A DNA stretch of 32,000 nt from Candidatus Thorarchaeota archaeon (GTDB taxonomy: Archaea; Asgardarchaeota; Heimdallarchaeia; Hodarchaeales; Hodarchaeaceae): contig JBHLRO010000016.1 in assembly GCA_048882505.1 (NCBI GenBank), positions 60,001 to 92,000 on the forward strand, written 5' to 3'. Within the stretch, counting starts at the first letter, position 1. The number at the start of each line of letters is the position of its first letter. Shown in pieces: positions 5,070 to 32,000 of this stretch. Under the pieces are notes generated by a model. The model made no database searches. It saw only the letters and a list, made by a program, of their open reading frames with translations, and had not been told where the DNA came from. Both the position numbers and the translations under genes were made by a program.

Positions 5070-5568
5070 ATCGACCTTCTTCGCTCTCCTGTTTATCCAA
5101 TAATCTTACTTTCTGAACTAATCCGTTTAAAAAAAGTGCCGTGAGCGCGATAGGATTAATATTAGAGCTGATCTCTTTCATATAAATACAGTCTCCTAAA
5201 TCTAATTCCCTTCGGGTAAGACCCGGCGAAGAACCACCAACAGCTACTAAAACCTTTTTAGTTTTTAAATTCGTGATAATCTGGTCATAAGGTACTGGTA
5301 TCTGACTATAACGAGGAGCTACAAGTAAATAAACAATCTGGGGATCCAATGTTTCGATGATATCCTCGATACTTGAGAAAAAAAGTAGGTTTCCTCCAGC
5401 AGAAAACACCGTTTTTTGGGCCTCTGGGATTCCAATTGAGGCAGCTGCCGCAGTAATTTTGCTGTAGACTATATTTTTGCAGGATAACCCAATACATGTG
5501 TCGGCAAAGTATTTGACCGCCCTACGACTATTTGAATTATGAAATGCCATGAACAAGTGCTTCAACAT
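5062..5568 (-). CDS. COG4080-type SpoU/SPOUT-like protein (historically annotated RecB-family nuclease)
   Basis: FHN..S......F.....GL....IV.SK...AAA..GIPEA.K pattern, and a C-terminal GGSSPGLTRRELDLG knot-like segment. GGAGG RBS upstream. Confidence 0.8.
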   Translation of the reverse strand: MLKHLFMAFHNSNSRRAVKYFADTCIGLSCKNIVYSKITAAAASIGIPEAQKTVFSAGGNLLFFSSIEDIIETLDPQIVYLLVAPRYSQIPVPYDQIITNLKTKKVLVAVGGSSPGLTRRELDLGDCIYMKEISSNINPIALTALFLNGLVQKVRLLDKQESEEGRFD

Positions 5569-7440: not shown

Positions 7441-7534
7441 AAAACATTACCGATTTGCTAGAGAAACGGTTCAAAAGTAGAAATCTAAATTATCCTAATG
7501 TAAAAAAAGGGAAAAAGGAACTGGGAAAATGGCG

Positions 7535-9064
7535 TCAGGAGGTGTATTTTCCTCTCTCTATTTTCTGTACTACGCCCACAGCAACGGTTTTTCCCGAGTC
7601 TCTTAAGGCAAAACGACCTAATGCAGGCGATTTTGCCAATGGTTCAACCACAAGTGGACTCAATGGAGTCATCCATATCATTCCTCGCTGCTGAGGAAGG
7701 AGCTGATCCGCTTCTTGGATTTGTGTCACACGACAGGCGACTTGAGCGGTGCCACAATGCACGACAGGAGAATAATTTGTATGTATTCCCCACGCAACTT
7801 CCCCTTTCTTCTTCGCTTTTCCAAGTCCCCGAACAACAAGGACAAGAGACAAAAATCCGTCAACATTGGGTCTTAAAGCTTGCGCTGGGTCATTAGGATC
7901 ACTAAGTACTGCACCACGAATTATGTCCTTGGCTCCAACATTCTTAGCTTTGATGCTAAAGCCAATGTTGTCACCAGGAATGGCCTGGGGAAGAGTCTTA
8001 TGAAATTCCTCGATAGTTTTAACGGAGATAGGTACTGGTTCTATCGACTGTTTTGTTGGTGAAACAACCATTTCTGTGTTTGGTTTTAAGACTCCACTCG
8101 AGACACGCCCAGTAAGAACCGTACCAACGCCACTTATGTTAAGAGTCTGCTGGATTGGTAATCTAACAGGCTGTTTCATCAAAGCTTCTTTTCTTACGGC
8201 AGGAGACTCTAGGAGATCAAGAGCATCCAATAATGCGGGGCCTTCATACCAAGATAACGCATCGAAACCCGCCTTAACATCCTCGATTTCCTTGTCAAGA
8301 GAAGCTATAAATTCCGCATCTCCACTTCCAGCCTTGGCAGCAGCAACATGGCCTTCTAGGTTTTTGAGTGTAGCTTCTTTCGAAAGGAGATTAACCCCAA
8401 CCAAACCGCTAGTAGGAACATAATTGATTGCGTCTAGGTAGCGTTCTTTGTTTTCGATCTGTAGGGCACCCATTAATGTGGAAAAAGTTTGATGGATCGC
8501 AGTTTTGATCTGTTTAAACCTTTCTTGATCCCAATTAACATCATCCATCTTGTTAATTGCAACTACTATGTTGGTCACTCCAAGGGAGGTGAGAAGGAGC
8601 ATATGCTCGGTAGTCATGCCAATAACGTTAGCGTATTTACCAGTTGCCTCTCCAGTTCTTTTTGTACCATCCTCAAATTCCCCTTTCCGGGCTGATACGA
8701 CCAGGATAGCAGCATCTGCTTGGGATGCACCTGTAATCATGTTCTTAATAAAGTCACTATGGCCTGGCGCATCGATGAGATTGTAAACGTATTTCTTGGT
8801 CTTGAATTCCTGGAAAGAGATGTTAATCGTGAGGCCCCGTTCCCGTTCATCCATCAGAGGATCCAAAATCCAGGCATACGACCAACTTGCCATTCCTTGG
8901 GTTCGACTATCCTTGTAGTATCTTTCTGCGATCCGCCAAGGTTGTCTTTTCTTTTTGGGATCATGGATCTGACCGAGTAAGAACAACATGTGGCCCAGAC
9001 CAGTTGATTTTCCATGGTCGACGTGTCCTGTGACCACCAAATTCATTCTTTCGAGATCTGCCAT
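7535..9064 (-). CDS. tuf: Elongation factor 1-alpha, divergent, with insertions (likely the elongation-competent copy)
   Basis: G1 GHVDHGKST, G2 RERGLTI, G3 DAPGH, FIKNMITGASQADAAILVVSA, G4 NKMD. Conserved domain II (PVRLPIQ..ISGVGTV.TGRV, PGDNIGF) and domain III (LGRFALRDSGKTVAVG). GGTGA RBS. Confidence 0.85.
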   Translation of the reverse strand: MADLERMNLVVTGHVDHGKSTGLGHMLFLLGQIHDPKKKRQPWRIAERYYKDSRTQGMASWSYAWILDPLMDERERGLTINISFQEFKTKKYVYNLIDAPGHSDFIKNMITGASQADAAILVVSARKGEFEDGTKRTGEATGKYANVIGMTTEHMLLLTSLGVTNIVVAINKMDDVNWDQERFKQIKTAIHQTFSTLMGALQIENKERYLDAINYVPTSGLVGVNLLSKEATLKNLEGHVAAAKAGSGDAEFIASLDKEIEDVKAGFDALSWYEGPALLDALDLLESPAVRKEALMKQPVRLPIQQTLNISGVGTVLTGRVSSGVLKPNTEMVVSPTKQSIEPVPISVKTIEEFHKTLPQAIPGDNIGFSIKAKNVGAKDIIRGAVLSDPNDPAQALRPNVDGFLSLVLVVRGLGKAKKKGEVAWGIHTNYSPVVHCGTAQVACRVTQIQEADQLLPQQRGMIWMTPLSPLVVEPLAKSPALGRFALRDSGKTVAVGVVQKIERGKYTS

Positions 9065-9754: not shown

Positions 9755-10786
9755 TCAACAAATTGCCAGATCAGTCTTGTTTTGTCCAGAAAAAGATTCC
9801 ATTAGGGGTTTTGCCATGACTAGGTAATGTTCTCGAAGTGTAAATTCCGCGATATCCAAGATTCTTGCGATATGCTTTTGTGTCAATATTCCTCTTCGCG
9901 ATTGTCGTGTGTAACATTGCGGAAAAAGAGAATGACGGGCCAGCAGGATATCCGATGCAACAATAATGGAAGCAGCGAGAATAAAGGGATTCCGGCCTCC
10001 CCGGGCTAGGAGAGGAAAATTCTGCAATAATTTTCTTGCACTTAGCCTCAAACATCTAAAATACTCACGTTGGTCTTTGATTCGCCTTGCAATTCGGCGA
10101 ATAATACTTGGATCTCGCTCGAGACGAGATACTATATTTTCCAAATATTCCTCCGATTTCACATGACCTACCCGAATATGCACATGTTGTCTGATTAAGG
10201 CGGCTGCCTTTATGATATTCTTTCCTCTAATCAAGTATCCCTGGTTCTGTATCGCTGAAATCAATCGTGCTAGCTCAATATTTTCCTTTCTCGAACGTAT
10301 TGCAAGGTATAATGAACCCAAAATAAGTTCTGAAAGCTTCAATTCCTTGTACAATGAAAGATGGACTTTTTGATAGAGAAATATTGCATCAGCTTTAGCA
10401 GCATCTGTTATTTGAAGAGCAATACACATTCGAGTTAGGAGTTGATATGCTCGATACTCTCTCTGTCTTCCTTGGAAATGAAGGTAAATATCATTTATAG
10501 ATTTTAATCTTCGAAAATATCGCTTTGCAGAGATCTTAAGATTTTCTCCCTTCGCATCGTTTCTTAAACGTTTGCGATAACTACCCACATAAGTTCCTAA
10601 CGTTTTCATGTTGCTTGGGCTTTCACTTATTGATGCATATTGGCTACCAAAGCTGTTTTCCGTATTTATTAACCGAATTGCTGGTTTTTCATATATCTGG
10701 TTTGCCACTAGCCCGCAGGCCATGCACACAACATCGGACTCGGTTTGTATGAGGTTTCCACCACATTCTAGGCATTTCGAGGTCAC
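9755..10786 (-). CDS. Divergent transcription factor B (TFB/TFIIB) paralog
   Basis: Zn ribbon CLEC-x12-CMAC, two cyclin-like repeats (LILGSLYLAIR; GRNPFILAASII) and a C-terminal HTH TQKHIARILDIAEFTLREHY. GTG at 10786 with GGTGA RBS preferred over the track start at 10849. Confidence 0.85.
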   Translation of the reverse strand: MTSKCLECGGNLIQTESDVVCMACGLVANQIYEKPAIRLINTENSFGSQYASISESPSNMKTLGTYVGSYRKRLRNDAKGENLKISAKRYFRRLKSINDIYLHFQGRQREYRAYQLLTRMCIALQITDAAKADAIFLYQKVHLSLYKELKLSELILGSLYLAIRSRKENIELARLISAIQNQGYLIRGKNIIKAAALIRQHVHIRVGHVKSEEYLENIVSRLERDPSIIRRIARRIKDQREYFRCLRLSARKLLQNFPLLARGGRNPFILAASIIVASDILLARHSLFPQCYTRQSRRGILTQKHIARILDIAEFTLREHYLVMAKPLMESFSGQNKTDLAIC

Positions 10787-11228
10787 AATTTTCACCAAAC
10801 ATACCAAAATCAAACTTATATCTAAATAAAATACAGAAAGTGAGACCAAAGTGAAAGCGACCGAAAAATGAAGTTGATATGAAAGAAAAAACCTGGTAAT
10901 ACAGAAGCCTAAATATCAAATACCATTACATACAGATATTAGAGAAATATTACTGTATTACATTCTTTTCAAACCTAAGAAAGTCCCATTCTCGCCCTAC
11001 AGATTACATTATCAAATTAACGGACAGTTTTTCATGTAAAGGGATGGTTCTGGGCTTGAAGAGAGTCTTATAGTAGGATAAGGTGAAAATCTGCATATTA
11101 ACAATTTGGATCTCTGTCCTGGAGGCATTTGGTTGTAGTAAAGCAAGACAAATTTAAAATGAAAATAAAGGATCTTGAGTAAAGCTTAAAATTGACTAAA
11201 TAGCCAGATTATAGACTGAGGCGTCTCA

Positions 11229-15656: not shown

Positions 15657-17018
15657 CTACATTACTCTAAAAGGGGAAGATTCTTCATTTCTCGAGATTT
15701 CTTTGAGAAATATCAATTCGGAATTGGCAGTACTCGGTCCATTTTGGTTTTCAGATTCGTTGAATTGTAATTTGAATAGTTGAAGGGTCAGTGAAGTGAT
15801 CTGAGAGGAAGTTAATCTTGAAGATGAAAGTTGAGTTAATTGGGCGAAGATACAAATGAGTTGCTGGAGCGACAATTGGCGTTTTAGCTCGGAAAGTAGG
15901 TAGCTCTGCTTAGATCCATCCCTTTCTTCGATAATAGTCTCTAGGATCGAAAGGAAATTGGGACTACGCACTAATTTCAGACAAAACATGGATCTACGAT
16001 GACATTTCTTTATTCTTTCGTTTAAAGGAATTTCTGGAGATTTAGGAAGATTACACATTTCGGCACATATTTGATTCATCTTTTCTGCTGAAACGAGGTT
16101 CATTTCGTTAAGTATAGGTCGGGATAATTCATTTTGATCATCTTCGGGTACTTGACGATGACCAAGGGATTCCTGTTCTAAGGAAACTACCCCGTCTACT
16201 GTTGAATCTACTTTATGAGGAGTAAAATTATGACCAAGTTCTGAAGATGCCATCAATATTGTTCTAATATATTGGACACCTTTTTCAAAGCTGATTTTTG
16301 ATCCTTCATATACCAAATATCTCAACCTGAGCTTAACCAGCTCTGAAGGACTCAATATTGATTTTGTGTTGTATAATGCCGGATTAAAAGCTATTCTGCC
16401 AAGATACTCAAAGAAAGAACTGGCAGGAAACTTTGCAAGATGATAGATCTGAGTATTGCCCTTGTCTCCTTGATTAGTCTTAGACGATTGTGAAGAATCC
16501 GTGGAGTAGACTAATACGGTACTTGGAGAGTAATGTGATTCCTTTTCGTTTATTGACTCATATCGTGGTATTAAAAAAGAACCCCCCTCCTTAAGAAAAT
16601 GTCTCCCGCCGATCTTACAGATTTTTCTTGATTTGAGATCTCTAACGAGATCGCGCTCCGATTCAGGGCTGATGTCGGGAAAAATGGTATCTAAAATCGC
16701 TGAGTTGCTATTAATTCGGTCTATTAGCTCCCCGTAAGAACTTGCATACAGCATTAACCTGATGACCTTCTTGTCAGAGTTTATCTCGATGGTGAATATT
16801 TGGAGATGCTGTAATTGGCTTAACTCATTTAACTGAATTCCATCTAAGGAATAACTCACATAAAAGGCCATCCAAAGATTGTGTTTAGGGATGAAAACAA
16901 TCCCTCTTCCCCTTATGGAAAAATCAATGGAAAATGAACTTCTGATGAATATTTGGAGTATCTCATATAAGAGTAATCCAGAGAGGATCAACGCGGGGAT
17001 ATAATGGAGCGGATTCAT
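15657..17018 (-). CDS. Hypothetical protein, N-terminal TM anchor (453 aa)
   Basis: Long ORF; hydrophobic N-terminus YIPALILSGLLLYEILQIFI; GAGGAG RBS upstream; no recognised domain. Confidence 0.8.
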   Translation of the reverse strand: MNPLHYIPALILSGLLLYEILQIFIRSSFSIDFSIRGRGIVFIPKHNLWMAFYVSYSLDGIQLNELSQLQHLQIFTIEINSDKKVIRLMLYASSYGELIDRINSNSAILDTIFPDISPESERDLVRDLKSRKICKIGGRHFLKEGGSFLIPRYESINEKESHYSPSTVLVYSTDSSQSSKTNQGDKGNTQIYHLAKFPASSFFEYLGRIAFNPALYNTKSILSPSELVKLRLRYLVYEGSKISFEKGVQYIRTILMASSELGHNFTPHKVDSTVDGVVSLEQESLGHRQVPEDDQNELSRPILNEMNLVSAEKMNQICAEMCNLPKSPEIPLNERIKKCHRRSMFCLKLVRSPNFLSILETIIEERDGSKQSYLLSELKRQLSLQQLICIFAQLTQLSSSRLTSSQITSLTLQLFKLQFNESENQNGPSTANSELIFLKEISRNEESSPFRVM

Positions 17019-17067
17019 GAGATTTTTTCTCCTCTTAAAACACTTCGTAAATCCATACGGAAAGACA

Positions 17068-17083
17068 AAGGTTTTAAAACCTT
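17068..17083. promoter_or_regulatory. Perfect 16-bp palindrome (possible operator overlapping a TATA-like core)
   Basis: AAGGTTTTAAAACCTT equals its own reverse complement; 50 nt upstream of the 453-aa gene start. Confidence 0.4.
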
Positions 17084-17160
17084 GATTTGTATTTTAAGCT
17101 GCCAGTTAGCCACCATTTGGAGAATTCCCGCATCGATACCATTACTGGATTTGAAATCAT

Positions 17161-20100
17161 TTAGGTCTGTAGAATCGACATTCGTCTTCTTTTGATAAAA
17201 TTCATGAGGAAAAGCCCTCCTAGGATTAGTATAGTGATGATCGTCGGGGTGAGATATTCTAAATCCGTTAGAAGTGAAGATGGGTTATAAACCAAAAGTT
17301 CCATCAGGGTGTTGGTAATATTAACAGTGTTTATATTCCCCGCCCAGTCCATAGCTTTCAGACTAACGTTTTTAGAGAGAAAACTAGTTACTGGGATACT
17401 GAATACGTGGTAATTCGTGGTTAAGTTATTGGAAACCATTCTTCTACCGTTATCCATAACTGAGACGTTTCTAATCCCTGAAGCCCGCTCAGGTTCAAAT
17501 ACAAAGGTATTAATCCTAATAAATTCGTCTGAAGCTTCAATTGAATATTTCAACACCGGCATATATGGGTCTGTAATAGTGAAAGATTGTTCTCTGCTCC
17601 TGACAATGAACGTAGAGGAATACTCTACTTCTAATCTTATGGATACTGTTGAATTCCAATTTTGGGGAGGTAAATGGGCTTCCACAAGAGTAGATCCGTT
17701 TGAAAATGTTTTATAACTCGTATTGAAACAGTTTAGTGAGTAGTGGCCTAATGAATAAATTACGGAGTACGAAAAATCAAGCGGGGAATGGAACAACCAG
17801 CTTCCCTTAATGGTTTCATTGTAAAAATAATTTCCCTGAAACGATTCCAACACATTGACGTTTAGATCAGCTAAGTATCCTTCCATATAATAGTTAATTG
17901 GAAGGCCTCCAATGATGTTAAGTCGTGATATGGAAATTTGGGTACCTTTAATGTTGATGGAGGTGGTTGAGGTAATGTCTCGGCCTAAAGTATCAAGGAG
18001 AGAGAGATTTAGAGGGATAAATCCCAAAAAACTAAGATCTAGACTTATTGTAAAGTTATTTACAGTTATAACAGAATCTAAGCTGATTTCGACCCGGAAT
18101 TTCTCAGAAAATTCCACTAGGGAAATATATGCAGTAGGACTAGGTAGTTCGATTACCAGGATATCAGTTGAAGAAACATTTCCATCAAGATTCCAAGATA
18201 AAACGCCGCTTCTAGAGTTAACCCCTACTATATAGTAGTCTCTCAGAATGAAAGCTGTTTTCATTTTTAGACCATAGGATGGTAAAGGAGTATACCAGCT
18301 GGAATCATTTGTGGGATATTCAATGGCATAATAGACGAAGAAAGATCCGTTTGAACCAACAGGTGACCGAGACAGTTCATAAATGTCTGCACGGGTTCCA
18401 TTGGTTGATAAAGTACCATTTAGTATTGTAAAAATGATGGTTTGGAACTTCACGAGACTTTCTTCTAAAAACCCTCCTATTCCAACGTACAATCGGTCTT
18501 CGGTTATACCAAGGTTTGCTTTGAAATCGATATCTGCATATCCTGCGGAGTTTGTCTGTCTTTCGCATTCTACGGAATTATTAATCCAAATCTTCACAGT
18601 AAGCCCTTGCAATATCTGAAGAGTACCTCCTTCAGGAGGTTGAAGATATGAATAAAGCCTGAATACTACAGAATCATTAATGTAAATTCCAGTATTGAGA
18701 TTTTCAAAACTCCATACTATTGATGATGATAGAATTTCAAGATTGATTTGCTTCTTTGCGAAAAAATTGCTGGTATCTGACGCAAGAATAAAAACGCTTA
18801 TGTTTCCTGGCGCCCACATTATATTAGTGATGTTTAAGACAAAATCCTTACGAGGGGTTTGTGAAAAAAGGAGATTAGTGTTTCCTTTTGTTAAAAGAAC
18901 GAGAGAACTATTTGCTGTATATTTCACACTGCCCAAAAATAAACTCAAATTTATGAATAAAGGTTCATATTGGTATATGGTCACATTTTGTTGGGTATGG
19001 AGTACAATCATTGCAAATTCATTTGATTCATGAATGATGATGTCTTGCTTATAGAAACCAAATTCCCAATTGCTGGTCCAATTAACTTCTAGACGTAATA
19101 GACCAATTGGAAATACTTCTGTTATAGGGACGTCCGGAAATGAAAAGGATCCATTTATCATTGGAAGAGTGGATCGATTGTAAACGAAGGTATTGTTCAA
19201 AAGGTATAGATAGAGGGCACCTGCTAAAGGAAATATCAAATCCCCTTTTACACGAAGTATATCATCTGTATTGAGATCCGTTGGGGCAATTATTTTGACA
19301 AGATAGTTAGGAGCAAAAGCCTCAAGTACTGTCGGATCTAAATACTTCCCTTCAACACGGTATTGTTTCCCAGTCAGATACATGTTCAATGATTTTGTAA
19401 CATTGATACTGTACAATTGGGTGCTTGCGTTAAGAATGCGCGGATCAGTCCAATCTGTGGGAAGAAAAATCAGAATTTTATTTTTTATCAAGTTTTCACT
19501 GATATCTGGCATGCACATTCTCAGAAAAATCTTAACATGAGTGGAATTCCAGTATAAACCAGATGAAAAGGCAGGGCGGGTCTGGACTCGTGTTATTGTC
19601 ACATTTAGATAGGTTTCCAAACTCTTATTCCAGGGTGAATTATCTTGGACAGAGAATGTAAAGTTGCCAGATAATGGAGAAATTGCGACCGATCCATTAG
19701 TAGAAAATACTTCTGTAGTATCAATAAAATAACTGAGGGAGCCATTTAAAGGTAGATTCTCTGTGTAATATTCTAAATTATCGATATCTAGGGTGAATTG
19801 AGGTGATACAAGGGTGAACAGGAAAAGTGAAAGCTTGACTGCTTTAAGTTCAGAGAATAAAGGGTGTTTGCTTTTGGAAAAACAGGTGTTAATCATCCAT
19901 GAAATATTAATGGAAATATGTCGCCATGATGAAGGGAGCGACCCATTATATAAAATATAAAGAGAACTTGAAGCGTTTCTCAGAATAAGGGAGGGATCGG
20001 TTCCTATTGGTCTCGAAATGGTTTCATTAATTGGATCACCGGGAAGATTTCCCCCTTTTGATAAATAAAATGTGATTGAGGTACTATTAACGAATTCAAA

Positions 20101-20736
20101 CTCCAAGCTCAAGGTAGGAGGAGAATCCTGAAGATTCTGACCAACGAAGGGCATTCGATAATCAAAGGAGATAAAAGTTGGAAAATTAGATGGCGGTGGA
20201 ACTGTAGACATGTTGAATTTCACATTCTGGAGCCCTGCACTACTCTGATTATTAACCGTGAAATTTGCACGAAATGCCGTACCATTAAGGGTAGGAATCG
20301 TCGAGGTGACAACAGGACCATACCCGTTTACCCAATCCTGACTTTGATCCTCAGCATTAGAAATAATTTTATATGTAGAATTACTGATCTCCGATTCAAT
20401 AGAAACAGTGGTATTTGGAGGTGATTTAATCTGCCTTGTTTGGTTGGTATGCAAAGGGAACTGTGAAACCTGAAACATATCAAAAAGGATCGGATCAGCG
20501 TTACTCGCGCTTTGATTGCTGACTTGAAATACTGATGACGAAGAAGAAAGAGGGGAACTTTCGGAAGTGCGTGGCTTTTCTAGAAGAGGTATTGAGAGCT
20601 TCTCAAAATCATTACCATCTACACCCGTTTCTATGTCCATGTTAATAAAAATCGGGATAATTGAAAAAACAACTAATAATATAAGAGCGGTATTCCTTAT
20701 GGAGTGAAAATGTGAGGTAAATGCCCAGATGCCCAT
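17161..20736 (-). CDS. Large secreted, C-terminally membrane-anchored surface glycoprotein (S-layer/adhesin-like)
   Basis: N-terminal hydrophobic signal (ALILLVVFSIIPIFI), beta-rich S/T/N-rich body with over 40 N-x-S/T sequons counted by eye, and C-terminal TM (TIITILILGGLFLMNFI) followed by KRRR. Confidence 0.85.
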   Translation of the reverse strand: MGIWAFTSHFHSIRNTALILLVVFSIIPIFINMDIETGVDGNDFEKLSIPLLEKPRTSESSPLSSSSSVFQVSNQSASNADPILFDMFQVSQFPLHTNQTRQIKSPPNTTVSIESEISNSTYKIISNAEDQSQDWVNGYGPVVTSTIPTLNGTAFRANFTVNNQSSAGLQNVKFNMSTVPPPSNFPTFISFDYRMPFVGQNLQDSPPTLSLEFEFVNSTSITFYLSKGGNLPGDPINETISRPIGTDPSLILRNASSSLYILYNGSLPSSWRHISINISWMINTCFSKSKHPLFSELKAVKLSLFLFTLVSPQFTLDIDNLEYYTENLPLNGSLSYFIDTTEVFSTNGSVAISPLSGNFTFSVQDNSPWNKSLETYLNVTITRVQTRPAFSSGLYWNSTHVKIFLRMCMPDISENLIKNKILIFLPTDWTDPRILNASTQLYSINVTKSLNMYLTGKQYRVEGKYLDPTVLEAFAPNYLVKIIAPTDLNTDDILRVKGDLIFPLAGALYLYLLNNTFVYNRSTLPMINGSFSFPDVPITEVFPIGLLRLEVNWTSNWEFGFYKQDIIIHESNEFAMIVLHTQQNVTIYQYEPLFINLSLFLGSVKYTANSSLVLLTKGNTNLLFSQTPRKDFVLNITNIMWAPGNISVFILASDTSNFFAKKQINLEILSSSIVWSFENLNTGIYINDSVVFRLYSYLQPPEGGTLQILQGLTVKIWINNSVECERQTNSAGYADIDFKANLGITEDRLYVGIGGFLEESLVKFQTIIFTILNGTLSTNGTRADIYELSRSPVGSNGSFFVYYAIEYPTNDSSWYTPLPSYGLKMKTAFILRDYYIVGVNSRSGVLSWNLDGNVSSTDILVIELPSPTAYISLVEFSEKFRVEISLDSVITVNNFTISLDLSFLGFIPLNLSLLDTLGRDITSTTSINIKGTQISISRLNIIGGLPINYYMEGYLADLNVNVLESFQGNYFYNETIKGSWLFHSPLDFSYSVIYSLGHYSLNCFNTSYKTFSNGSTLVEAHLPPQNWNSTVSIRLEVEYSSTFIVRSREQSFTITDPYMPVLKYSIEASDEFIRINTFVFEPERASGIRNVSVMDNGRRMVSNNLTTNYHVFSIPVTSFLSKNVSLKAMDWAGNINTVNITNTLMELLVYNPSSLLTDLEYLTPTIITILILGGLFLMNFIKRRRMSILQT

Positions 20737-20794
20737 CTTGGTATCCCATTTCGACGGTTGATTCCTTCGCTGGCCTCTAAGTTTGTATCAAAGT

Positions 20795-20810
20795 GGTGTT
20801 AAATAACACC
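20795..20810. promoter_or_regulatory. Near-perfect 16-bp palindrome containing a TATA-like core
   Basis: GGTGTT-AAAT-AACACC. On the minus strand it reads GGTGTTATTTAACACC, about 60 nt upstream of the 1191-aa gene. Confidence 0.35.
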
Positions 20811-20872
20811 CCAAAACAAAGACCTTGAAGATGTATATGGATACCCAGGATCGTCCGGATTCGTGTTAATTT

Positions 20873-22405
20873 CTACACTAGTAGGTAATTACTGAGAAAA
20901 AATGTTCGGACAAGAAAGAAGATAACAAGAAAAAGGAAAACATGAAAACAAGCGATGATTCTGCCCATTGAAATTCGAATCTTTGTATGTGAGGTATTTA
21001 GAAAAGATCTTCGGCCGGGGAGAACACTCATGACTAATGCAATGGTAAGAAAAAGAATGTCAAAACTAGGATCAAGAGTTGGATTACTTAAATCCATGAA
21101 AGAATAGCTTAATGATGTTGAAACATAAAGAAAGAATGGACTGGCCCCCCCGATAATTGCAAGCGATATAATTGACAGTAATTGGATGATCCCGTTTTGA
21201 AGGTCAGCTGCTTTCCGTTTGGCTTCTCCTCTATTCAATATTTGACTTGTCCTGTTTAATTCCTCTGTTATAATCAATAATTTTTCTCCTGCTACATATG
21301 GATCAATCTTACTAAACTTTTGGGTCAGAGTAACAAGTTGAATCGCGCGTTCAGATAAGAATTCTCGTAGAAATCTGGACTTTTGATCACTCCCTTGGTT
21401 TCCTCTAAGTAGGAATTTATTGAAATTGTTTACCTCTTTATCTATCGATTTAGCGATATTCCCAGGTGGATAATAGCCACCCAGGTTTAATGCAGAATTA
21501 AGGCTTTTTTCAAAGCTATTCCCTTTCATCATATTTTCAGCAAGTATAAGGAGCATTTGTATGGATTCGGAATCATTGGATATGGCAATCCGATTTTTTT
21601 CAGAAAATAATATCAGATATCTGTTTGGACTAACAATAAATGAAACTAGAATTATTCCAAAGATTATAAGTGCTCCCCAAAAAAAGTTCATCAATCCAGT
21701 GATTAGTAATAAACATAAGAGTACAGGTGGGCTCAATAATGCTAATCCTGAGGATAAGGCCACCCAGGTATCGATTTTTTCTATTTCTTCTACCGCCTTT
21801 ACCGTAATTTGGTTGAGAATGTGTTTTTTTGAAAAATCCGCCAAGTTCCTACCACTTTCCCATATGGAAATTATGTTTGAAAATAAATGAAGAATATTAC
21901 CGCGTAATCGTTTTGTTATCTCCTTTTTCAGATTTACTTCAAGATTATCGCCAAAATGACTCTGTAAAAGCGCCTCTTCAAATATCTGTGAAAATACTGA
22001 GTAATTACCATGAATAATAAACATGCTGGCCTCCTTCAAGGATTTTGATGTTTCTAAAATCATTAAAAGCTCATTGACTACAAAATAGCCCAAAGTTTCG
22101 ATCATTGTACTGTGTTGTTTAAACTGGCTATATATAATGAAGTGTAGCAGGCGTAGGATGAAAACAGCAAGAGTAATTTCTAATAAAAGGAGTTCAATTG
22201 GCCGAGGATACAATATAAAGAACTGGAATGCAAGAATGACAGACAATGTGACAAAAAACAGTGTAATAATACCGTAAAAACTTGTTTTGTCCATTCTATA
22301 TCTGGATCTAAAGTATTCCTCAAAGCTATAATCGTCAAAAAAGGTATAATCTCCAAGGATAACGTTACCAATCATTTCCAGTAGTTGAACTGATACCTTT
22401 ACCAT
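20873..22405 (-). CDS. Type II secretion system F / TadB-TadC-like membrane platform protein (two repeats)
   Basis: Two units of TM pair, cytoplasmic helical domain (ELLMILETSKSLKEA; ILAENMMKGNSFEKSLN) and TM. This is the architecture of archaeal TadC/ArlJ-like proteins, and it lies divergent from a TadA-type ATPase. Confidence 0.75.
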   Translation of the reverse strand: MVKVSVQLLEMIGNVILGDYTFFDDYSFEEYFRSRYRMDKTSFYGIITLFFVTLSVILAFQFFILYPRPIELLLLEITLAVFILRLLHFIIYSQFKQHSTMIETLGYFVVNELLMILETSKSLKEASMFIIHGNYSVFSQIFEEALLQSHFGDNLEVNLKKEITKRLRGNILHLFSNIISIWESGRNLADFSKKHILNQITVKAVEEIEKIDTWVALSSGLALLSPPVLLCLLLITGLMNFFWGALIIFGIILVSFIVSPNRYLILFSEKNRIAISNDSESIQMLLILAENMMKGNSFEKSLNSALNLGGYYPPGNIAKSIDKEVNNFNKFLLRGNQGSDQKSRFLREFLSERAIQLVTLTQKFSKIDPYVAGEKLLIITEELNRTSQILNRGEAKRKAADLQNGIIQLLSIISLAIIGGASPFFLYVSTSLSYSFMDLSNPTLDPSFDILFLTIALVMSVLPGRRSFLNTSHTKIRISMGRIIACFHVFLFLVIFFLVRTFFLSNYLLV

Positions 22406-22739
22406 CTTCTCTCATTCCTCGGCAAATCTGGCTGAGACAAACAAATGGTAGGAAAGAACCCAATTTGGAAATTGCTGCTCTATACTTTTGCGTTGGAGTA
22501 CCATCGGAAATATCGATACAGATACGGGTTCTAGTGATTTATATTGCCTAGTTAAACCGCAGTTCTCATTGGAAGTCCGAACCTAAACATGAAAGTGGCA
22601 TTCATTTGATCAATTACCCTTATTTAATATAAAATCCCCAATTCTCTCTAGGGAGGTTTCCTGAGTTCTCAATTAGACGGGTGTAGTCAGAACTCAATTC
22701 TATATCATATCCTCTAAATCTAGGGTTTTTTTATTCTTT

Positions 22740-23078
22740 TTGCAGGAAATCTTGTTGGTTAGTGAATTGGCTTTCTTACAAACACAGAGAACCATAATTC
22801 AAGTAAAATGCATAGCTTGCGGAAAAAAGGAAACTATCGTGATAACTGAAGAAGAATTGGAATATGCAAAAAAGGAACATGCCCTTATTACAAAAGCCGT
22901 TGCCCACACTCAAGCTGGGCATGTTTTGACACTGTATATAGATGGTCAGGGGATAGTAAGAAGGAAATATTGTTTCGATATTGCAGAAAGTAAGCGCAAT
23001 CTTTTCACTAATTCGTTGTCAAAGGATTTGGACTCCATTTTCGAGCAGATGCTTAAAGATGCCATGAAAGCTCAATAG
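22740..23078 (+). CDS. Small putative Zn-binding protein (CxxC...H...H-x4-YID..G.VR)
   Basis: CIAC, then AVAHTQAGHVLTLYIDGQGIVRR. Directly upstream of and co-oriented with the ATPase. Confidence 0.75.
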   Translation: MQEILLVSELAFLQTQRTIIQVKCIACGKKETIVITEEELEYAKKEHALITKAVAHTQAGHVLTLYIDGQGIVRRKYCFDIAESKRNLFTNSLSKDLDSIFEQMLKDAMKAQ

Positions 23079-23120
23079 CGAAATAGTAGATATCCAAGAA
23101 CGACCATTTAACCGAGATTA

Positions 23121-24491
23121 TTGGTGAAGTCATTGGTTCCATCGATTCACTTGGCCCCCCATAATATTATTACCCAAATGGAACTTTTAGAGTCCTACAA
23201 ATTTCGAAGCTACGTGGTAGAAGTTAATCAGGAGAAATCGACGAAGACTCTTGAACCCCTGTACCAAGTAAAATATGATGAGACAACCTACAAGAGTTTG
23301 AAAGACTTCTATTTATATGAAAAACAAATTAAGATGGCCTTAGAAGAGTTTGTATCGCAAAACAAAGAATTTTGCACATTTAATCAACTTTTCAAATACC
23401 TAAACGAAATTATCCCTAACAAGGTTTACATTCCGAGTGGATTAATGGTTCCGATCTTTTTTCGGGTACTTGGGCTTGAAAAGATCGGACCCCTGTTAAT
23501 GGATGAGAATATTGACGAAATCTATATCGATTCGAGTCATAAAGCTATTTATATTGACCATAATCGACATGGGCGGTGTAACACCTTCATTAAGCTCTCC
23601 AAAAAGGAAATTGATACTTTTGTAAGCCGAATTGCCCTTGAAAACGATTTTTCATTAAGCCAAAGTAATCCTACAATGAAAGCGGATTTTACATCGCCCT
23701 TATTTCATACGAGGGTTACCGTTGATATCCCCCCACTTATTATTGAAGATGTACACATTGATATTAGGAAATTTCACGCAGAACAATTACGTTTACCAGA
23801 TCTAGTAGAGATTGGGAGTATTACGGGCGCACAGGCCGATTTTTTGAGGTATCTAATCCAAAACCAAACTTCACTCTCAATAATTGGACCACCCAATTCT
23901 GGGAAGACCACGCTACAAAACGCCTTAATTGAATATATTCCATCCCATTTACGACTTCTTTCAATAGAAGATGTCCTTGAGAGTACAAATTTAAGACACG
24001 GTAATGTTGTGCGATTTCGACTTGGGTACGACCCTCATGAGGGCCATTTAATCTCTAAGTCAATGGAAGTTCAAAAGATTTTACATAGAAGTCCTGATTT
24101 TATAAATCTAGGTGAATTATCCTTAAAAGATCATTTTACAGCCTTTCTTAATGTGTTGTCAGTCGGTATACCATCAATTCAAACTATTCATGGGAAAAAT
24201 CCCAATTTTCTTCTCCAACGACTAAAAGACATCTATCAAGTTCCTCTCGAAATCCTCCAAACCTCAATCCCCCATGTATTTATCGAACTCGACGTTTTTT
24301 GGAAAAGGAATAAGAAAAACCGAATGCTTGTTAAAATTGCTGAATTAAATGAACAAGGAGGTATTTCATCGATTTCTAATGAAGATATCAATCACTTTCT
24401 TACAAATGATCGCGAGAGTTCAAATATTTTCACGATTAGATACCTCCTGAACCGTAATCGTGCTGAAAACTGGCATAAAACAAATACCTAA
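23121..24491 (+). CDS. Type II/IV secretion ATPase, CpaF/TadA/VirB11 family
   Basis: DENIDEIYID, IDIRKF, Walker A GPPNSGKTT, Asp box SIEDVLE, Walker B PDFINLGEL, His box TIHG. Confidence 0.93.
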   Translation: MVKSLVPSIHLAPHNIITQMELLESYKFRSYVVEVNQEKSTKTLEPLYQVKYDETTYKSLKDFYLYEKQIKMALEEFVSQNKEFCTFNQLFKYLNEIIPNKVYIPSGLMVPIFFRVLGLEKIGPLLMDENIDEIYIDSSHKAIYIDHNRHGRCNTFIKLSKKEIDTFVSRIALENDFSLSQSNPTMKADFTSPLFHTRVTVDIPPLIIEDVHIDIRKFHAEQLRLPDLVEIGSITGAQADFLRYLIQNQTSLSIIGPPNSGKTTLQNALIEYIPSHLRLLSIEDVLESTNLRHGNVVRFRLGYDPHEGHLISKSMEVQKILHRSPDFINLGELSLKDHFTAFLNVLSVGIPSIQTIHGKNPNFLLQRLKDIYQVPLEILQTSIPHVFIELDVFWKRNKKNRMLVKIAELNEQGGISSISNEDINHFLTNDRESSNIFTIRYLLNRNRAENWHKTNT

Positions 24492-24602
24492 ATCACGACT
24501 CGTTCTTTGACGTATAATGATTGAATATTCTTCAATTCGGGTTTTTATAAGGTAAGCAGCATTAGAGCTATTGAACCAAAACAATGGTTTCATGGGATAG
24601 AC

Positions 24603-25118
24603 TTGCAGCTTCTTTCGTTCCTTTGTTCTATCCCAGGCAGTTCCTGGGGTGTTACGTTTTTTTCGTCTTTTATATTTGAAACGGCTCCAGATTCAAATAA
24701 CAACTTTATGATTCCTCTTTTCTCCGATTTATTAAGCGTAGCTATAATTATATTGAACATTTCACTGTTATACGGTGGTATAGTATATTTATTGGAATTT
24801 GACGGTCGAAATGGTAAAATAATGGTAATTAGGTCAGTTGTGGTGTTTCTATTGTTGATTTCTCTTTTTTCCCCCGCGTATGATCCTGTTACATTCAATT
24901 TCCGCTATTTGGACAACATTTTTCCCTTAATATCATACATACTTGCATATTTGCTGTTTATATTTGCAGCATCCGCATTAATTCTGTTCATTGGCAATTT
25001 AGGATTCTATCTTCTGTCCTCACACCCCAGAAAAGGCGAGGGCCTGAAACGATGTGGATTTTGTTTACTTTGTGTGCTCTTGCCGCTAGGGTTTCAATTT
25101 CCGAAATTCCCTTTGTGA
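24603..25118 (+). CDS. Membrane protein with two TM-hairpin repeats (VirB2/TrbC-pilin-like); likely start ATG 24708
   Basis: Two hairpins, each with a short basic loop: ILNISLLYGGIVYLLEFDGRNGKIMVIRSVVVFLLLI and ALILFIGNLGFYLLSSHPRKGEGLKRCGFCLLCVLL. Confidence 0.7.
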   Translation: MQLLSFLCSIPGSSWGVTFFSSFIFETAPDSNNNFMIPLFSDLLSVAIIILNISLLYGGIVYLLEFDGRNGKIMVIRSVVVFLLLISLFSPAYDPVTFNFRYLDNIFPLISYILAYLLFIFAASALILFIGNLGFYLLSSHPRKGEGLKRCGFCLLCVLLPLGFQFPKFPL

Positions 25119-25131
25119 ATGATGTGATCTG

Positions 25132-25359
25132 ATGTTCGACACGGTTCTTTGGCAGTTTATAACGACCCTATATCATCTTATATTATCTGTTCCATTCGGT
25201 GCCTTCCTCATTGTGATTGGTGCAATCATTTATGTTCCAACTGGGCACCGCTTAGGAAGATATTTTATTATCGTTGGACTTTTAATTTTCACCATCCAAA
25301 GCGGTATCATCTCAAGCGATCCGCTATGGAAGGAAGGCATCGTCTTACGATTTTTTTGA
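25132..25359 (+). CDS. Small 2-TM membrane protein (VirB2/CedA1-pilin-like)
   Basis: Helix, TM1 (ILSVPFGAFLIVIGAIIYV), basic loop (PTGHRLGR), TM2 (YFIIVGLLIFTI); 13 nt after the previous gene. Confidence 0.7.
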   Translation: MFDTVLWQFITTLYHLILSVPFGAFLIVIGAIIYVPTGHRLGRYFIIVGLLIFTIQSGIISSDPLWKEGIVLRFF

Positions 25360-30889: not shown

Positions 30890-32000
30890 CTACCTTTCTA
30901 GAGGATTAAACCATAATTCTCGATATTTCTCGCGCAATCGTGCGTAAAATGGGGTGTTCTTGAGAGAATTGAGAACATGGGATCGTTGAACCTCAAAGGT
31001 AAAATTATTGGTTTGGAGTAATGTTACCTTACCGTTAACTGAAAGAATACAACGTTGTCCAGTTGGCTCGATTTTTAGAAGGCTTCGAAGTTGTTCATAA
31101 TCGGTTTTGCTCAAACCTAGAAGGTTAGAGATGGCGTAAGAATCATAATTGGTAAAAAAAATGACCAAAATACCTGTATTGGTTAGGATTGCCTGATCTA
31201 TAATAGGGTCGGTACCCACGAATATCATCGATACATCATAAGCGCGCAGGGTCCATGGCCCACGACCAATCATGGAAGTTGGAGGTAGAGATCGATGATT
31301 ATTAGTAGGAATGAGTTTCTGGGCCTCATCTAGGACAATCACGTTTTTTGGGAGGGAATCTTCTTTGTAAGGTAACCGAGAAGTTCTGATAAAATAATAA
31401 AGGAATTGAAAAACCACTTCAAGAAAGATTTGCCTACCTAATTGATCCTCCATTGCCTCAAAGCCTGAAAGATCAATGATAGAATTCTTTTCCAATAGAT
31501 CCCCGAGCTCAAAGGTTGTTTCACGAACTGTGAAACAACGTCCTGTGTTACCAAAGAAGAGTTTTTCAACACGGTTGATTATACCTGCCGATGTGTTCTC
31601 CAGATACGCCCCTTGAATACCTAGATCCTTAGGTGATTGAACCAATGAAACAAAGTGGTTGAAATCTCCACGATGTTTTACTGTTTCAATCACAGCCTGG
31701 TGCAGTACTCGACGCATCTGTGGCGAAACATTGTCACTATTTGCAAAAATATGTTCTAGAATGGAAACAACGAAAAGGATATGATCTTCCATAGGAATAA
31801 GGTCATCTCCTCTATTATCTTTCGGGATCTGAAAGATGTTTATTCCCCAGGGAAAAGTAGTAGATCCTGGTTTTATATAAATGAAATCCTCACAGAAAGA
31901 TTTAACAGGCTGAATATATTCTCCTTTTGGGTCAAAAATGAGAAATTTGACCTTCTGACGGTAAAATTCCTTTATCACCCCATATATGAAGCGGCTTTTT
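30890..32000 (-). CDS. HerA/VirB4-like (DUF87-type) ATPase, 5' end beyond the window
   Basis: The frame stays open to the window edge and reads ...KSRFIYGVIKEF, i.e. the end of Walker A. Then IFDPKGEY, INIF, Walker B IVLDEAQ and LRAYDV.MIF. Confidence 0.85.
   Translation of the reverse strand, partial: KSRFIYGVIKEFYRQKVKFLIFDPKGEYIQPVKSFCEDFIYIKPGSTTFPWGINIFQIPKDNRGDDLIPMEDHILFVVSILEHIFANSDNVSPQMRRVLHQAVIETVKHRGDFNHFVSLVQSPKDLGIQGAYLENTSAGIINRVEKLFFGNTGRCFTVRETTFELGDLLEKNSIIDLSGFEAMEDQLGRQIFLEVVFQFLYYFIRTSRLPYKEDSLPKNVIVLDEAQKLIPTNNHRSLPPTSMIGRGPWTLRAYDVSMIFVGTDPIIDQAILTNTGILVIFFTNYDSYAISNLLGLSKTDYEQLRSLLKIEPTGQRCILSVNGKVTLLQTNNFTFEVQRSHVLNSLKNTPFYARLREKYRELWFNPLER

What the first reader, a model, noticed from the sequence alone, without database searches (positions are those of the whole stretch)
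15657..25359. Candidate hybrid Tad / T4SS-like envelope system embedded among core genes
Seen: a divergent locus with a TadA/VirB11-type ATPase with intact motifs, a double T2SS-F platform, two co-oriented genes giving three TM-hairpin units, a Zn-motif protein, a 1191-aa anchored glycoprotein and a TM-anchored orphan. A VirB4/HerA-like ATPase lies 5.5 kb away. Established: type IV/Tad pili use class III signal-peptide prepilins, whereas conjugative T4SS and crenarchaeal Ced/Ted DNA-import systems use VirB2-like hairpin pilins with a VirB4-like ATPase. No class III prepilin or prepilin peptidase is visible here. Inference: a mosaic, domesticated machine for cell contact, secretion or DNA exchange, with no relaxase or integrase in view.
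Basis: partly seen in the sequence, partly recalled or inferred. Interest (0 to 1): 0.78.

Follow-up and report, generated by a model that had tools for sequence, protein, structure and literature searches.

The report
Asgard Tad/Flp pilus module, split
This is the Hodarchaeales version of a pilus-assembly gene set shared by many Asgard archaea: its small pilin is encoded about 15 kb away rather than missing, and it carries conserved two-helix membrane proteins of unknown role that elsewhere sit beside a HerA-type ATPase.

Summary
The seven genes are real and keep the same order, between rps9 and rpoA1, in 16 genus-mates, so this is not a mobile element. The ATPase is an archaeal TadA/GspE2-type secretion ATPase of a distinct Asgard paralog ("clade B"). 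The 510-aa protein is a fusion of the TadB-like and TadC-like platform genes that are separate in other Asgards.

The claim of no class III pilin holds only inside the window. A Flp-like prepilin (KKRA|SPLVEEG) lies about 14.9 kb away across a contig gap, and an A24 prepilin peptidase is on contig C18. In at least 30 other Heimdallarchaeia genomes this pilin lies within 7.3 kb of the clade-B ATPase.

A divergent TFB paralog inside the window (9755-10849) also belongs to the set.

The 171-aa protein belongs to an Asgard-wide hairpin family. Elsewhere that family is adjacent to the Flp pilin, fused to it, or next to HerA-type ATPases. Its likeness to VirB2/CedA1 is weak and unresolved.

The HerA-like gene is 5.5 kb away only in this lineage, but its subfamily shares an operon with hairpin and pilin genes in two other contigs.

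Best reading: a Tad/Flp-type pilus machine, possibly coupled to DNA transfer. This scan had already found the module in Thorarchaeota.

The parts
9755..10849 (-). Divergent TFB (TFIIB) paralog, the module's probable private transcription factor
   Evidence: Pfam TFIIB is only weak, 1.7e-3. It is the G000 best match (E 1e-38 to 1e-44) of the TFB genes next to clade-B ATPases in L038, L060 and L019; other G000 TFBs score 1e-8 to 1e-14. It stays about 5 kb from the cassette in 18 of 21 genus-mates.
15657..17018 (-). 453-aa protein with an N-terminal hydrophobic helix, function unknown (orph453)
   Evidence: No family hit. Conserved at 23-31 % identity in the same place in genus-mates. A weak relative (607 aa, E 2e-8) lies beside hairpin genes in another Hodarchaeota contig, L095.
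17161..20736 (-). 1191-aa sequon-rich surface protein with an N-terminal helix and a C-terminal membrane anchor plus basic tail (gly1191)
   Evidence: 47 sequons against 18.7 in shuffles, and conserved termini. Weakly similar to the 948-aa anchored protein of the related locus L018. A comparable 976-aa protein follows the ATPase in L060.
20873..22405 (-). Platform protein, a TadB-like plus TadC-like fusion (T2SSF type)
   Evidence: hhalign 97.8 % and 97.9 % to the separate Asgard TadB-like and TadC-like genes. Bridged to Pfam T2SSF through L019. Fold hits PilC, SpoIIIAB and EpsF at Z 6.7-7.2. Present in 18 of 20 genus-mates.
22406..22739 (.). 334-bp divergent intergenic region between the two operons, presumed to hold the promoters
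   Evidence: Gene layout only. Promoters were not tested.
22740..23078 (+). 112-aa Cys/His-motif protein 43 bp upstream of the ATPase (zn112)
   Evidence: Invariant C24, C27, H47, H56, H61, C78 and the GHxLTLYIDGxG.VRRKYCF block. Homologs are found only in Hodarchaeales records. Atlas look-alikes in Asgard have no family.
23121..24491 (+). TadA/GspE2-type secretion ATPase, Asgard clade B
   Evidence: The bit-score matrix separates clade B from the canonical clade A paralog at G000:C15. The two clades score bimodally across the class. Motifs are shown.
24603..25118 (+). Four-helix membrane protein made of two fused hairpin units (tm171); an alternative ATG start is at 24708
   Evidence: The N-half matches the Asgard-wide type 1 hairpin family (33-42 bits). 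The C-half matches type 2 hairpin genes (12-22 bits). Only 17 relatives exist among 1.84 billion representatives. The family profile hits 147 of 400 Asgard genomes.
25132..25359 (+). Small two-helix membrane protein (tm75; 61-62 aa in about half of the genus-mates)
   Evidence: Conserved after tm171 in genus-mates. The AlphaFold model is a helical hairpin, pLDDT 88. It shares the G-x-I-x-Y...G-[KR] motif in alignment A6 but is not significant against the hairpin HMMs.
30890..32000 (-). HerA-superfamily ATPase without membrane helices (717 aa; runs past the window to G000:C16:93043), a possible associated motor
   Evidence: DUF87 1.2e-15. CedD 1e-7 but far below its cut-off. 27 % identical over 250 aa (residues 135-372) to the HerA-like gene in the hairpin/pilin operon of L054, and 29 % to the membrane-anchored HerA of L059. 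Its position is not conserved in the genus.

Best explanation
The locus is the Hodarchaeales form of an Asgard-wide, vertically inherited Tad/Flp-type type IV filament module.

Shown here:
- A clade-B secretion ATPase and a fused TadB-TadC platform are encoded divergently.
- Their cognate Flp-like class III prepilin is encoded in trans. It lies 8.8-15 kb away in the genus and usually within 7.3 kb in other Heimdallarchaeia.
- The genome has one A24 prepilin peptidase.
- A dedicated TFB paralog lies 4.8 kb upstream of the cassette.

Inferred mechanism:
- The TFB paralog switches the genes on.
- The peptidase removes the basic leader of the pilin.
- The hexameric ATPase docks on the platform and lifts the roughly 53-aa pilins out of the membrane into a thin filament used for adhesion or cell-cell contact.
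- The hairpin proteins tm171 and tm75 are membrane partners of the pilin or platform. Their family is adjacent to the Flp pilin, or fused to it, in other lineages.
- gly1191 is an anchored surface glycoprotein, acting as an adhesin or sheath.
- zn112 is a cytoplasmic accessory of the ATPase.
- The HerA-type ATPase may add a DNA-translocation step. This is the least certain part.
For: ATPase family and motifs.

Two ATPase paralog clades.

Platform fusion.

Synteny in 16 genus-mates between rps9 and rpoA1, with cassette proteins at 23-65 % identity against 90-93 % for RpoA1 in all but the closest relative (81-94 % there).

Pilin and peptidase:
- Flp-like pilin at G000:C34:23512-23748, homologous to pilins adjacent to clade-B ATPases in L018, L019 and L038.
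- The pilin is found in 21 of 21 genus-mates and 73 of 83 genomes of the class.
- Pilin and clade-B ATPase share a contig, no more than 7.3 kb apart, in at least 30 genomes of four other families (searches compared).
- In family f7, all 8 genomes with clade B have the pilin. Of the 4 without clade B, none has a clear pilin hit; one has a weak match (E 1e-3).
- Contig C16 joins C34, placing the pilin 14.9 kb from tm75, as in G280.
- A24 peptidase at C18.

TFB paralog orthology and position.

Hairpin family next to the pilin or TadB/C (L055, L058) or near them (L060, L076), and fused to the pilin in L062.

A KaiC-like ATPase sits beside the pilin. KaiC-family ATPases are T4P-associated according to PMC4858521.
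Against: No filament, expression or processing data exist, and no RNA runs were found.

In the genus the pilin is separated from the machine by the rpoA1-rps12 block, so the link rests on comparative genomics.

The genome's other T4P locus (C15) has its own pilins, but cross-use cannot be excluded.

The Arg after Walker B is lost in clade B, so the ATPase mechanism may differ.

The closest literature analogue, subclade 4D, was suspected by its authors not to be a pilus at all.

The roles of five of the seven cassette genes are inferred from position only.
Confidence: 0.68

Rival explanations
1. Composite pilus plus conduit. Besides, or instead of, the Flp filament, the hairpin proteins are VirB2/CedA1-like subunits. 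With the HerA/VirB4-like ATPase they form a T4SS-like DNA conduit, making the whole an Asgard counterpart of Ups pili plus Ced.
For: - A hairpin gene lies directly upstream of HerA-type ATPases in L051/L054 (order: tm171-like, Flp, hairpin 2, HerA-like) and in L059. It lies about 3 kb from a membrane-anchored HerA in 10 loci of family f11.
- The window HerA shares its N-domain with the L054 ATPase.
- Sub-threshold hits to TrbC/VirB2, DUF4134, Maff2 and T4SS_pilin. TedC 8dft scores E 2.8. CedA1 8dfu is tied top at Z 5.8 over 74 of 84 residues.
- The topology inferred from the Flp-hairpin fusion and the basic loop (termini outside, loop inside) is that of F-pilin; the F-pilin topology is recalled from general knowledge, not from a tool.
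- The precedent of Ups plus Ced is described in PMC11868833.
Against: - No hit reaches significance. Unrelated families (Serinc, DUF308) score alike, and rmsd is 7.8 Å.
- Pfam TrbC over 400 Asgard genomes gave one hit above cut-off, at a locus not among the listed hairpin hits.
- No VirB6/CedA-like channel, coupling protein or relaxase was seen.
- HerA is not kept beside the locus in genus-mates.
- In family f7 the hairpin sits by the canonical HerA-Mre11-Rad50 repair operon.
- 12 of 30 hairpin loci have no such neighbour.
- Family f3 has the pilin and ATPase but almost no hairpins.
Confidence: 0.17
2. Not a filament machine. The ATPase and platform have been re-used, as was suspected for subclade 4D, for export or membrane insertion of the large glycoprotein gly1191, or for a transcription-linked function beside RNA polymerase genes.
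For: - gly1191 and comparable anchored giants recur next to clade-B ATPases.
- The locus lies between RNA polymerase and ribosomal operons, with a TFB paralog nearby.
- The authors of PMC4858521 suggested a non-pilus, transcription-related role for 4D systems.
Against: The Flp-like pilin is tightly linked to clade B across the class, and the pilin is highly conserved (77-96 % identity within the genus). Both argue for a working pilin substrate. Large anchored proteins are common T4P neighbours.
Confidence: 0.1
3. An integrated conjugative or other mobile element, or an assembly artefact.
For: G+C is lower in the cassette (0.36-0.38) than in the flanking core genes (0.42-0.45).
Against: - The genes hold the same place and order in 16 genus-mates, including a single-contig genome.
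- No integrase, relaxase or repeats were seen.
- The same low G+C covers nearby core genes at 9-14 kb.
Confidence: 0.02

Closest known systems
Bacterial Tad/Flp pilus (CpaF/TadA, TadB, TadC, Flp, TadV) and archaeal type IV pili
   Same: It has a secretion ATPase of the T2SSE family (CpaF 1.8e-15, afGspE 9e-27). The platform has two T2SSF-type halves. The class III prepilin is very small, with Glu at +5. An A24 peptidase is present. As is common in archaea, the pilin is encoded away from the motor.
   Different: TadB and TadC are fused. There are no outer-membrane parts. The Arg after Walker B is missing. Extra conserved hairpin membrane proteins, a Cys/His protein and a private TFB are present. 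The genes are interleaved with RNA polymerase and ribosomal operons.
Archaeal T4P-like 'subclade 4D' of Pyrobaculum/Thermoproteus (Makarova, Koonin and Albers 2016, PMC4858521)
   Same: A divergent ATPase is followed by a 4-5-helix membrane protein of no known family. A dedicated TFIIB homolog is present. The locus is next to an RNA polymerase subunit gene, and no pilin lies in the locus.
   Different: Here a recognisable TadB-TadC platform and a linked Flp-like pilin exist. Sequence kinship with arCOG05558 and arCOG05557 could not be tested with the tools at hand.
Ups pili plus the Ced DNA importer of Sulfolobales (CedA, A1, A2, B, D) and Ted of Thermoproteales
   Same: A type IV pilus set co-occurs with two-helix membrane proteins and HerA/VirB4-class ATPases, under a TFB paralog (TFB3 in Sulfolobales). 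CedA1 is an unprocessed two-helix pilin.
   Different: No CedA/VirB6-like channel was found. The HerA-like ATPase scores only 31 bits against CedD, whose cut-off is 600. Hairpin-VirB2 homology is unproven. No DNA-transfer function is known in Asgard archaea.

Membership tests
Type IV filament superfamily, Tad/Flp type | Secretion ATPase of the T2SSE/TadA family with Walker A, Asp box, Walker B and His box | tested here: met
   Pfam T2SSE 63 bits against a cut-off of 24.9. PDB relatives afGspE, FlaI and CpaF. Motifs shown; one conserved Arg is replaced.
Type IV filament superfamily, Tad/Flp type | Polytopic platform of the T2SSF/TadB-TadC family | tested here: met
   Not met by direct Pfam scan. 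Met through profile links to Asgard TadB-like and TadC-like proteins (97.8 % and 97.9 %), one of which passes Pfam T2SSF. The fold matches PilC and EpsF at Z 6.7-7.2.
Type IV filament superfamily, Tad/Flp type | Class III (prepilin) signal peptide substrate linked to the motor | tested here: met
   None lies in the window. A Flp-like prepilin is at G000:C34:23512-23748, 14.9 kb away by the G280 layout. It is adjacent to the same ATPase clade in other families. That this motor assembles it is inferred.
Type IV filament superfamily, Tad/Flp type | A24 prepilin peptidase in the genome | tested here: met
   G000:C18:13117-13953, 278 aa. Arc_PepC_II 1.3e-10; Peptidase_A24 26.8 bits in the genome scan.
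Type IV filament superfamily, Tad/Flp type | An assembled filament | not testable with these tools
   Needs microscopy or proteomics.
T4SS / Ced-Ted DNA-transfer systems | VirB2/CedA1/TedC-type two-helix pilin | tested here: inconclusive
   Hairpin topology is present. Pfam TrbC matched 4 of 37 members, best 0.003 and below cut-off, among unrelated families. TedC scores E 2.8. CedA1 scores Z 5.8 at rmsd 7.8 Å, tied with unrelated chains. Foldseek gave nothing.
T4SS / Ced-Ted DNA-transfer systems | VirB4/CedB/CedD-type ATPase encoded with the system | tested here: inconclusive
   A HerA-superfamily ATPase lies 5.5 kb away (DUF87 1.2e-15). CedD scores 31 bits against a cut-off of 600. It is operonic with hairpin and pilin genes in L054 and L059. 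It is not kept beside the locus in genus-mates.
T4SS / Ced-Ted DNA-transfer systems | VirB6/CedA-like channel, coupling protein or relaxase | tested here: not met
   No such family appeared in the Pfam and NCBIfam scans of the window's ORFs. The only large polytopic protein is the T2SSF-type platform.
Archaeal T4P-like subclade 4D (PMC4858521) | arCOG05558 ATPase with an arCOG05557 or arCOG13890 membrane protein | not testable with these tools
   No arCOG profiles or Thermoproteales sequences were at hand. tm171 (four helices, directly after the ATPase) fits the description only.
Archaeal T4P-like subclade 4D (PMC4858521) | Dedicated TFIIB homolog with the ATPase, and no pilin in the locus | tested here: inconclusive
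   A TFB paralog is present but 4.8 kb away. It is adjacent to the ATPase in L038 and near it in L060 and L019. Unlike 4D, a pilin is linked in most Asgard lineages.

The most novel reading that the evidence does not exclude
Asgard archaea, including the Hodarchaeales, carry a conserved composite surface machine. It would combine a Flp-type pilus motor, VirB2/CedA1-like hairpin subunits, a HerA/VirB4-class DNA pump and a private TFB, and would mediate chromosomal DNA exchange between cells. That would make it an Asgard counterpart of the Ups plus Ced system of Sulfolobales.
Probability: 0.17. Interest if true: 0.85.

Novelty: new variant of a known kind. Interest (0 to 1): 0.6.

Why it matters
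Almost nothing is known about how Asgard archaea, the closest prokaryotic relatives of eukaryotes, touch one another or exchange material. This work defines a chromosomal gene set that is old, conserved and testable. It comprises a motor, platform, pilin, peptidase, private transcription factor, hairpin proteins and an associated HerA-type ATPase.

The work also shows that a locus that appears to lack a pilin has its pilin in trans. That may equally explain the puzzling pilin-less 'subclade 4D' systems of Thermoproteales.

The hairpin family, and its fusion to the pilin in one genus, give concrete targets for structural work in the Asgard strains now in culture.

Tried and rejected
- Complex prediction of zn112 with the ATPase: no verdict, score 0.00.
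- Foldseek of the tm75 model against the PDB: no match with E below 1; the top rows were GldL/PorL hairpins.
- NCBIfam scan of the hairpins: nothing relevant.
- Pfam TrbC over 400 Asgard genomes: one hit above cut-off, at a locus not among the listed hairpin hits.
- Platform profile against PDB sequences: nothing. The platform model had low overall confidence (pLDDT 51), so only residues 30-190 were usable.
- Atlas search for orph453: no usable hit.
- zn112 HMM against the N-terminal extensions of the longer clade-B ATPases: no hit.
- Hairpin HMM against the N-terminal membrane segments of the long HerA proteins: no hit.
- Full-length HerA against the PDB: only weak HerA hits, best E 0.002.
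- Rejected by eye: class III signals at the N-termini of gly1191 and orph453, and tm171 as a prepilin peptidase (no GxGD motif).
- Rejected: a mobile-element origin.
- tm75 could not be tied significantly to the hairpin family.
Full report
**What is in the window**

The window is G000:C16:60001-92000 of a Hodarchaeales-type Asgard genome. The protein names say Hodarchaeota, Hodarchaeales or Heimdallarchaeota.

The left flank holds rpoD, L18e, L13, S9 and a tRNA-Ile. The right flank holds rpoA1, rpoA2, a 100-aa ORF not scanned, a NusA-like KH protein and a gene I take to be S12 (itself not scanned).

Between them lie seven genes in two divergent groups:
- orph453, 15657-17018, minus strand
- gly1191, 17161-20736, minus strand
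- plat510, 20873-22405, minus strand
- zn112, 22740-23078, plus strand
- atp456, 23121-24491, plus strand
- tm171, 24603-25118, plus strand
- tm75, 25132-25359, plus strand

Only the ATPase has a direct family hit (T2SSE 2.4e-17). Its nearest solved relatives are archaeal GspE2 (2oap, 9e-27), FlaI and CpaF; VirB11 is far weaker. All four nucleotide-binding motifs are intact. The Arg that normally follows Walker B (GE[IV]R) is Ser here and Gln in related Asgard ATPases.

**Conservation**

The platform has only 14 close relatives in 5.8 billion clusters, and it is present in 18 of 20 genus-mates. In 16 genus-mates with enough contig, the cassette genes visible on the contig keep the same order, and every flank that is visible is rps9 or rpoA1. 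All seven genes are visible in most of these genomes.

Apart from the closest relative G280 (81-94 %), the cassette proteins are 23-65 % identical, while RpoA1 is 90-93 % identical. This is a fast-evolving but vertically inherited block, not a mobile element. No integrase or relaxase was seen.

**The platform**

Weak profile hits outside the genus lead to separate genes of about 280 aa and about 240 aa next to related ATPases. One of them passes Pfam T2SSF.

hhalign places residues 28-254 of plat510 on the TadB-like gene and residues 275-500 on the TadC-like gene, at 97.8 % and 97.9 %.

The AlphaFold model is poor overall (pLDDT 51). Its confident part (residues 102-196) has as its four best matches among 48,161 chains the PilC N-domain, SpoIIIAB, PilC again and EpsF, at Z 6.7-7.2. 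The 'double T2SS-F platform' is therefore confirmed, and it is a gene fusion.

**The pilin is in trans, not missing**

The genome has two T2SSE paralogs:
- Clade A, at C15, sits with two T2SSF genes and several class III pilins.
- Clade B is the window ATPase. Its relatives are in L018, L019, L022, L038 and L040.

Outside the genus, clade-B loci carry a tiny Flp-like prepilin with the site K-x-(A/G)|SPL(V/I)EEG.

A genome-wide scan for class III signals found the same gene at G000:C34:23512-23748. The contig of the closest relative, G280, shows that the end of C16 joins the end of C34. This places the pilin 14.9 kb from tm75. In most other genus-mates the distance is about 8.8 to 10.6 kb, just beyond the rpoA1-S12 block.

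The pilin is present in 21 of 21 genus-mates and in 73 of 83 genomes of the class. A class-wide search with clade-B ATPases gives a bimodal score: 229 bits or more for clade B, 187 or less for clade A.

Comparing, pilin and clade-B ATPase share a contig no more than 7.3 kb apart in at least 30 genomes of four other families. In family f7 all 8 genomes with clade B have the pilin. None of the 4 genomes without clade B has a clear pilin hit; one has a weak match (E 1e-3).

An A24 prepilin peptidase lies on C18.

**A private TFB**

The 364-aa gene at 9755-10849 is a divergent TFB. It is the best G000 match (1e-38 to 1e-44) of the TFB genes beside clade-B ATPases in L038, L060 and L019; the other G000 TFBs score 1e-8 to 1e-14. 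It stays about 5 kb from the cassette in 18 of 21 genus-mates.

The closest description in the literature is 'subclade 4D' of Thermoproteales. That system has a divergent ATPase, a 4-5-helix membrane protein, a dedicated TFIIB, no pilins and an RNA polymerase subunit gene as neighbour, and its function is unknown (PMC4858521). Kinship by sequence could not be tested.

**The hairpin proteins**

A profile of tm171 finds only 17 relatives among 1.84 billion representatives. A broadened profile hits 147 of 400 Asgard genomes, mostly genes of 83-118 aa with the motif G-x-I-x-[WY]-x-[TS]-x-x-[DN]-E-x-x-G-K-[KG] between two hydrophobic helices.

tm171 is a fusion. Its N-half matches this type 1 family at 33-42 bits. 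Its C-half matches a second type at 12-22 bits; that second type is a separate gene in L051, L054 and L095. tm75 shares the motif in the alignment but is not significant against either model.

Thirty hairpin loci outside the genus were examined:
- In L055 and L058 the gene follows the Flp pilin.
- In L062 it is fused to the pilin. Open frames of similar length over the hairpin hit in two further genomes of that genus suggest the same fusion there; these were not inspected.
- In L060, L070 and L076 it lies within 8 kb of a clade-B ATPase (with TadB/C-like genes in L060 and L076). In L055 and L062 it is followed by two-helix genes of TadB/C size that no HMM or Pfam scan confirmed.
- In 13 loci it lies within 6 kb of a HerA-type ATPase.
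- In 12 loci it has none of these neighbours.

In L051 and L054 the order is tm171-like, Flp pilin, type 2 hairpin, HerA-like ATPase.

Evidence for VirB2/CedA1 kinship stays below any threshold:
- Pfam TrbC matched 4 of 37 members, DUF4134 4 and Maff2 3, beside Serinc 5 and DUF308 4.
- TedC scores E 2.8.
- CedA1 scores Z 5.8 at rmsd 7.8 Å, tied with unrelated helical chains.
- Foldseek gave nothing.

I call this unresolved.

**The HerA-like ATPase**

It is 717 aa, has DUF87, no membrane helix, and only weak PDB relatives.

It belongs to the subfamily found in the L054 operon (27 % identity over 250 aa, its residues 135-372, which include the N-domain) and to that of the membrane-anchored L059 protein (29 %). 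It is not the canonical HerA.

In the genus it is present in 20 of 21 genomes in one or two copies (three matching places in two genomes), but it lies beside S12 only in G000 and G280. Elsewhere S12 is followed directly by the Rio/KH genes and the pilin, and HerA is 19-55 kb away or on other contigs. Position therefore does not co-vary, although the family-level link across Asgard lineages is real.

**Other parts**

- gly1191 has 47 sequons against 18.7 expected, and conserved terminal anchors. Comparable anchored giants sit in L018 and L060.
- zn112 has invariant Cys and His residues and is confined to Hodarchaeales. The complex test with the ATPase gave no verdict.
- orph453 has a weak relative beside hairpin genes in L095.

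**Verdict**

This is best read as a Tad/Flp-type pilus module of a distinct Asgard clade. Its parts are spread over about 40 kb and interleaved with core transcription and translation genes, with the pilin supplied in trans.

A coupled hairpin plus HerA DNA-transfer function, like Ups plus Ced (PMC11868833; PMC9905601), remains possible at roughly one in six.

Earlier reports of this scan described the same module in Thorarchaeota. The new points here are:
- the Hodarchaeales layout
- the TadB-TadC fusion
- the hairpin family with its fusion to the pilin
- the proof that the pilin lies across a contig gap.

Noticed in passing
G000:C16 end (about 93.2-94.5 kb) and G000:C34 end: The two contigs are neighbours, with C34 reversed. 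In G280 the same genes run uninterrupted across the junction. The stretch at the junction gives only spurious ORFs that are 99-100 % identical between the two genomes; I take it to be an rRNA gene, but this was not tested.
   Followed up: partly
L062:7744-8199 (G095); also G072:C139 and G042:C143: In L062 the Flp-like prepilin and a type 1 hairpin are one 151-aa open frame. In the related genome G105 they are two genes that overlap by 8 nt. G072 and G042 have open frames of 149-150 aa over their hairpin hits, which may be the same fusion; these were not inspected.
   Followed up: partly
L056:7979-14392 and L057:2059-8441 (Heimdallarchaeia family f7): A type 1 hairpin gene sits directly upstream of a canonical HerA (HAS barrel plus DUF87). 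Two genes with Mre11-like and Rad50-like N-terminal motifs follow on the same strand; their identity is by eye, they were not scanned.
   Followed up: no
G000:C34:23862-27044, and the same place in genus-mates: The Flp pilin is divergent from a conserved operon: Ras-like GTPase, KaiC-like ATPase, a 155-aa protein and a 472-aa protein. In L095 the equivalents hit AF0774 and FIST. This may be a regulatory module.
   Followed up: partly
window 23121-24491 and relatives: Clade-B ATPases replace the conserved Arg of GE[IV]R(G/D) after Walker B with Gln, or with Ser in Hodarchaeales. Clade A keeps it.
   Followed up: no
window 4083-5568: A C-5 cytosine DNA methyltransferase gene overlaps a RecB-family nuclease (DUF2122) gene on the minus strand. 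This may be a restriction-modification pair.
   Followed up: no
window 6118-9064: Two EF1A-family GTPase genes lie in tandem. Another report of this scan has already followed them up.
   Followed up: no
L028 (G208:C18:66400-78500): In this genus-mate the locus looks rearranged. rpoA1 lies on the other side, and tm171 is split into a 79-aa piece and a second piece about 7 kb away.
   Followed up: no
G217 and G241 (genus-mates, 70-71 % complete): Both lack the platform, hairpin, TFB paralog and clade-B ATPase with these queries but keep the Flp pilin. This is either true loss or incompleteness.
   Followed up: no
   Followed up: no
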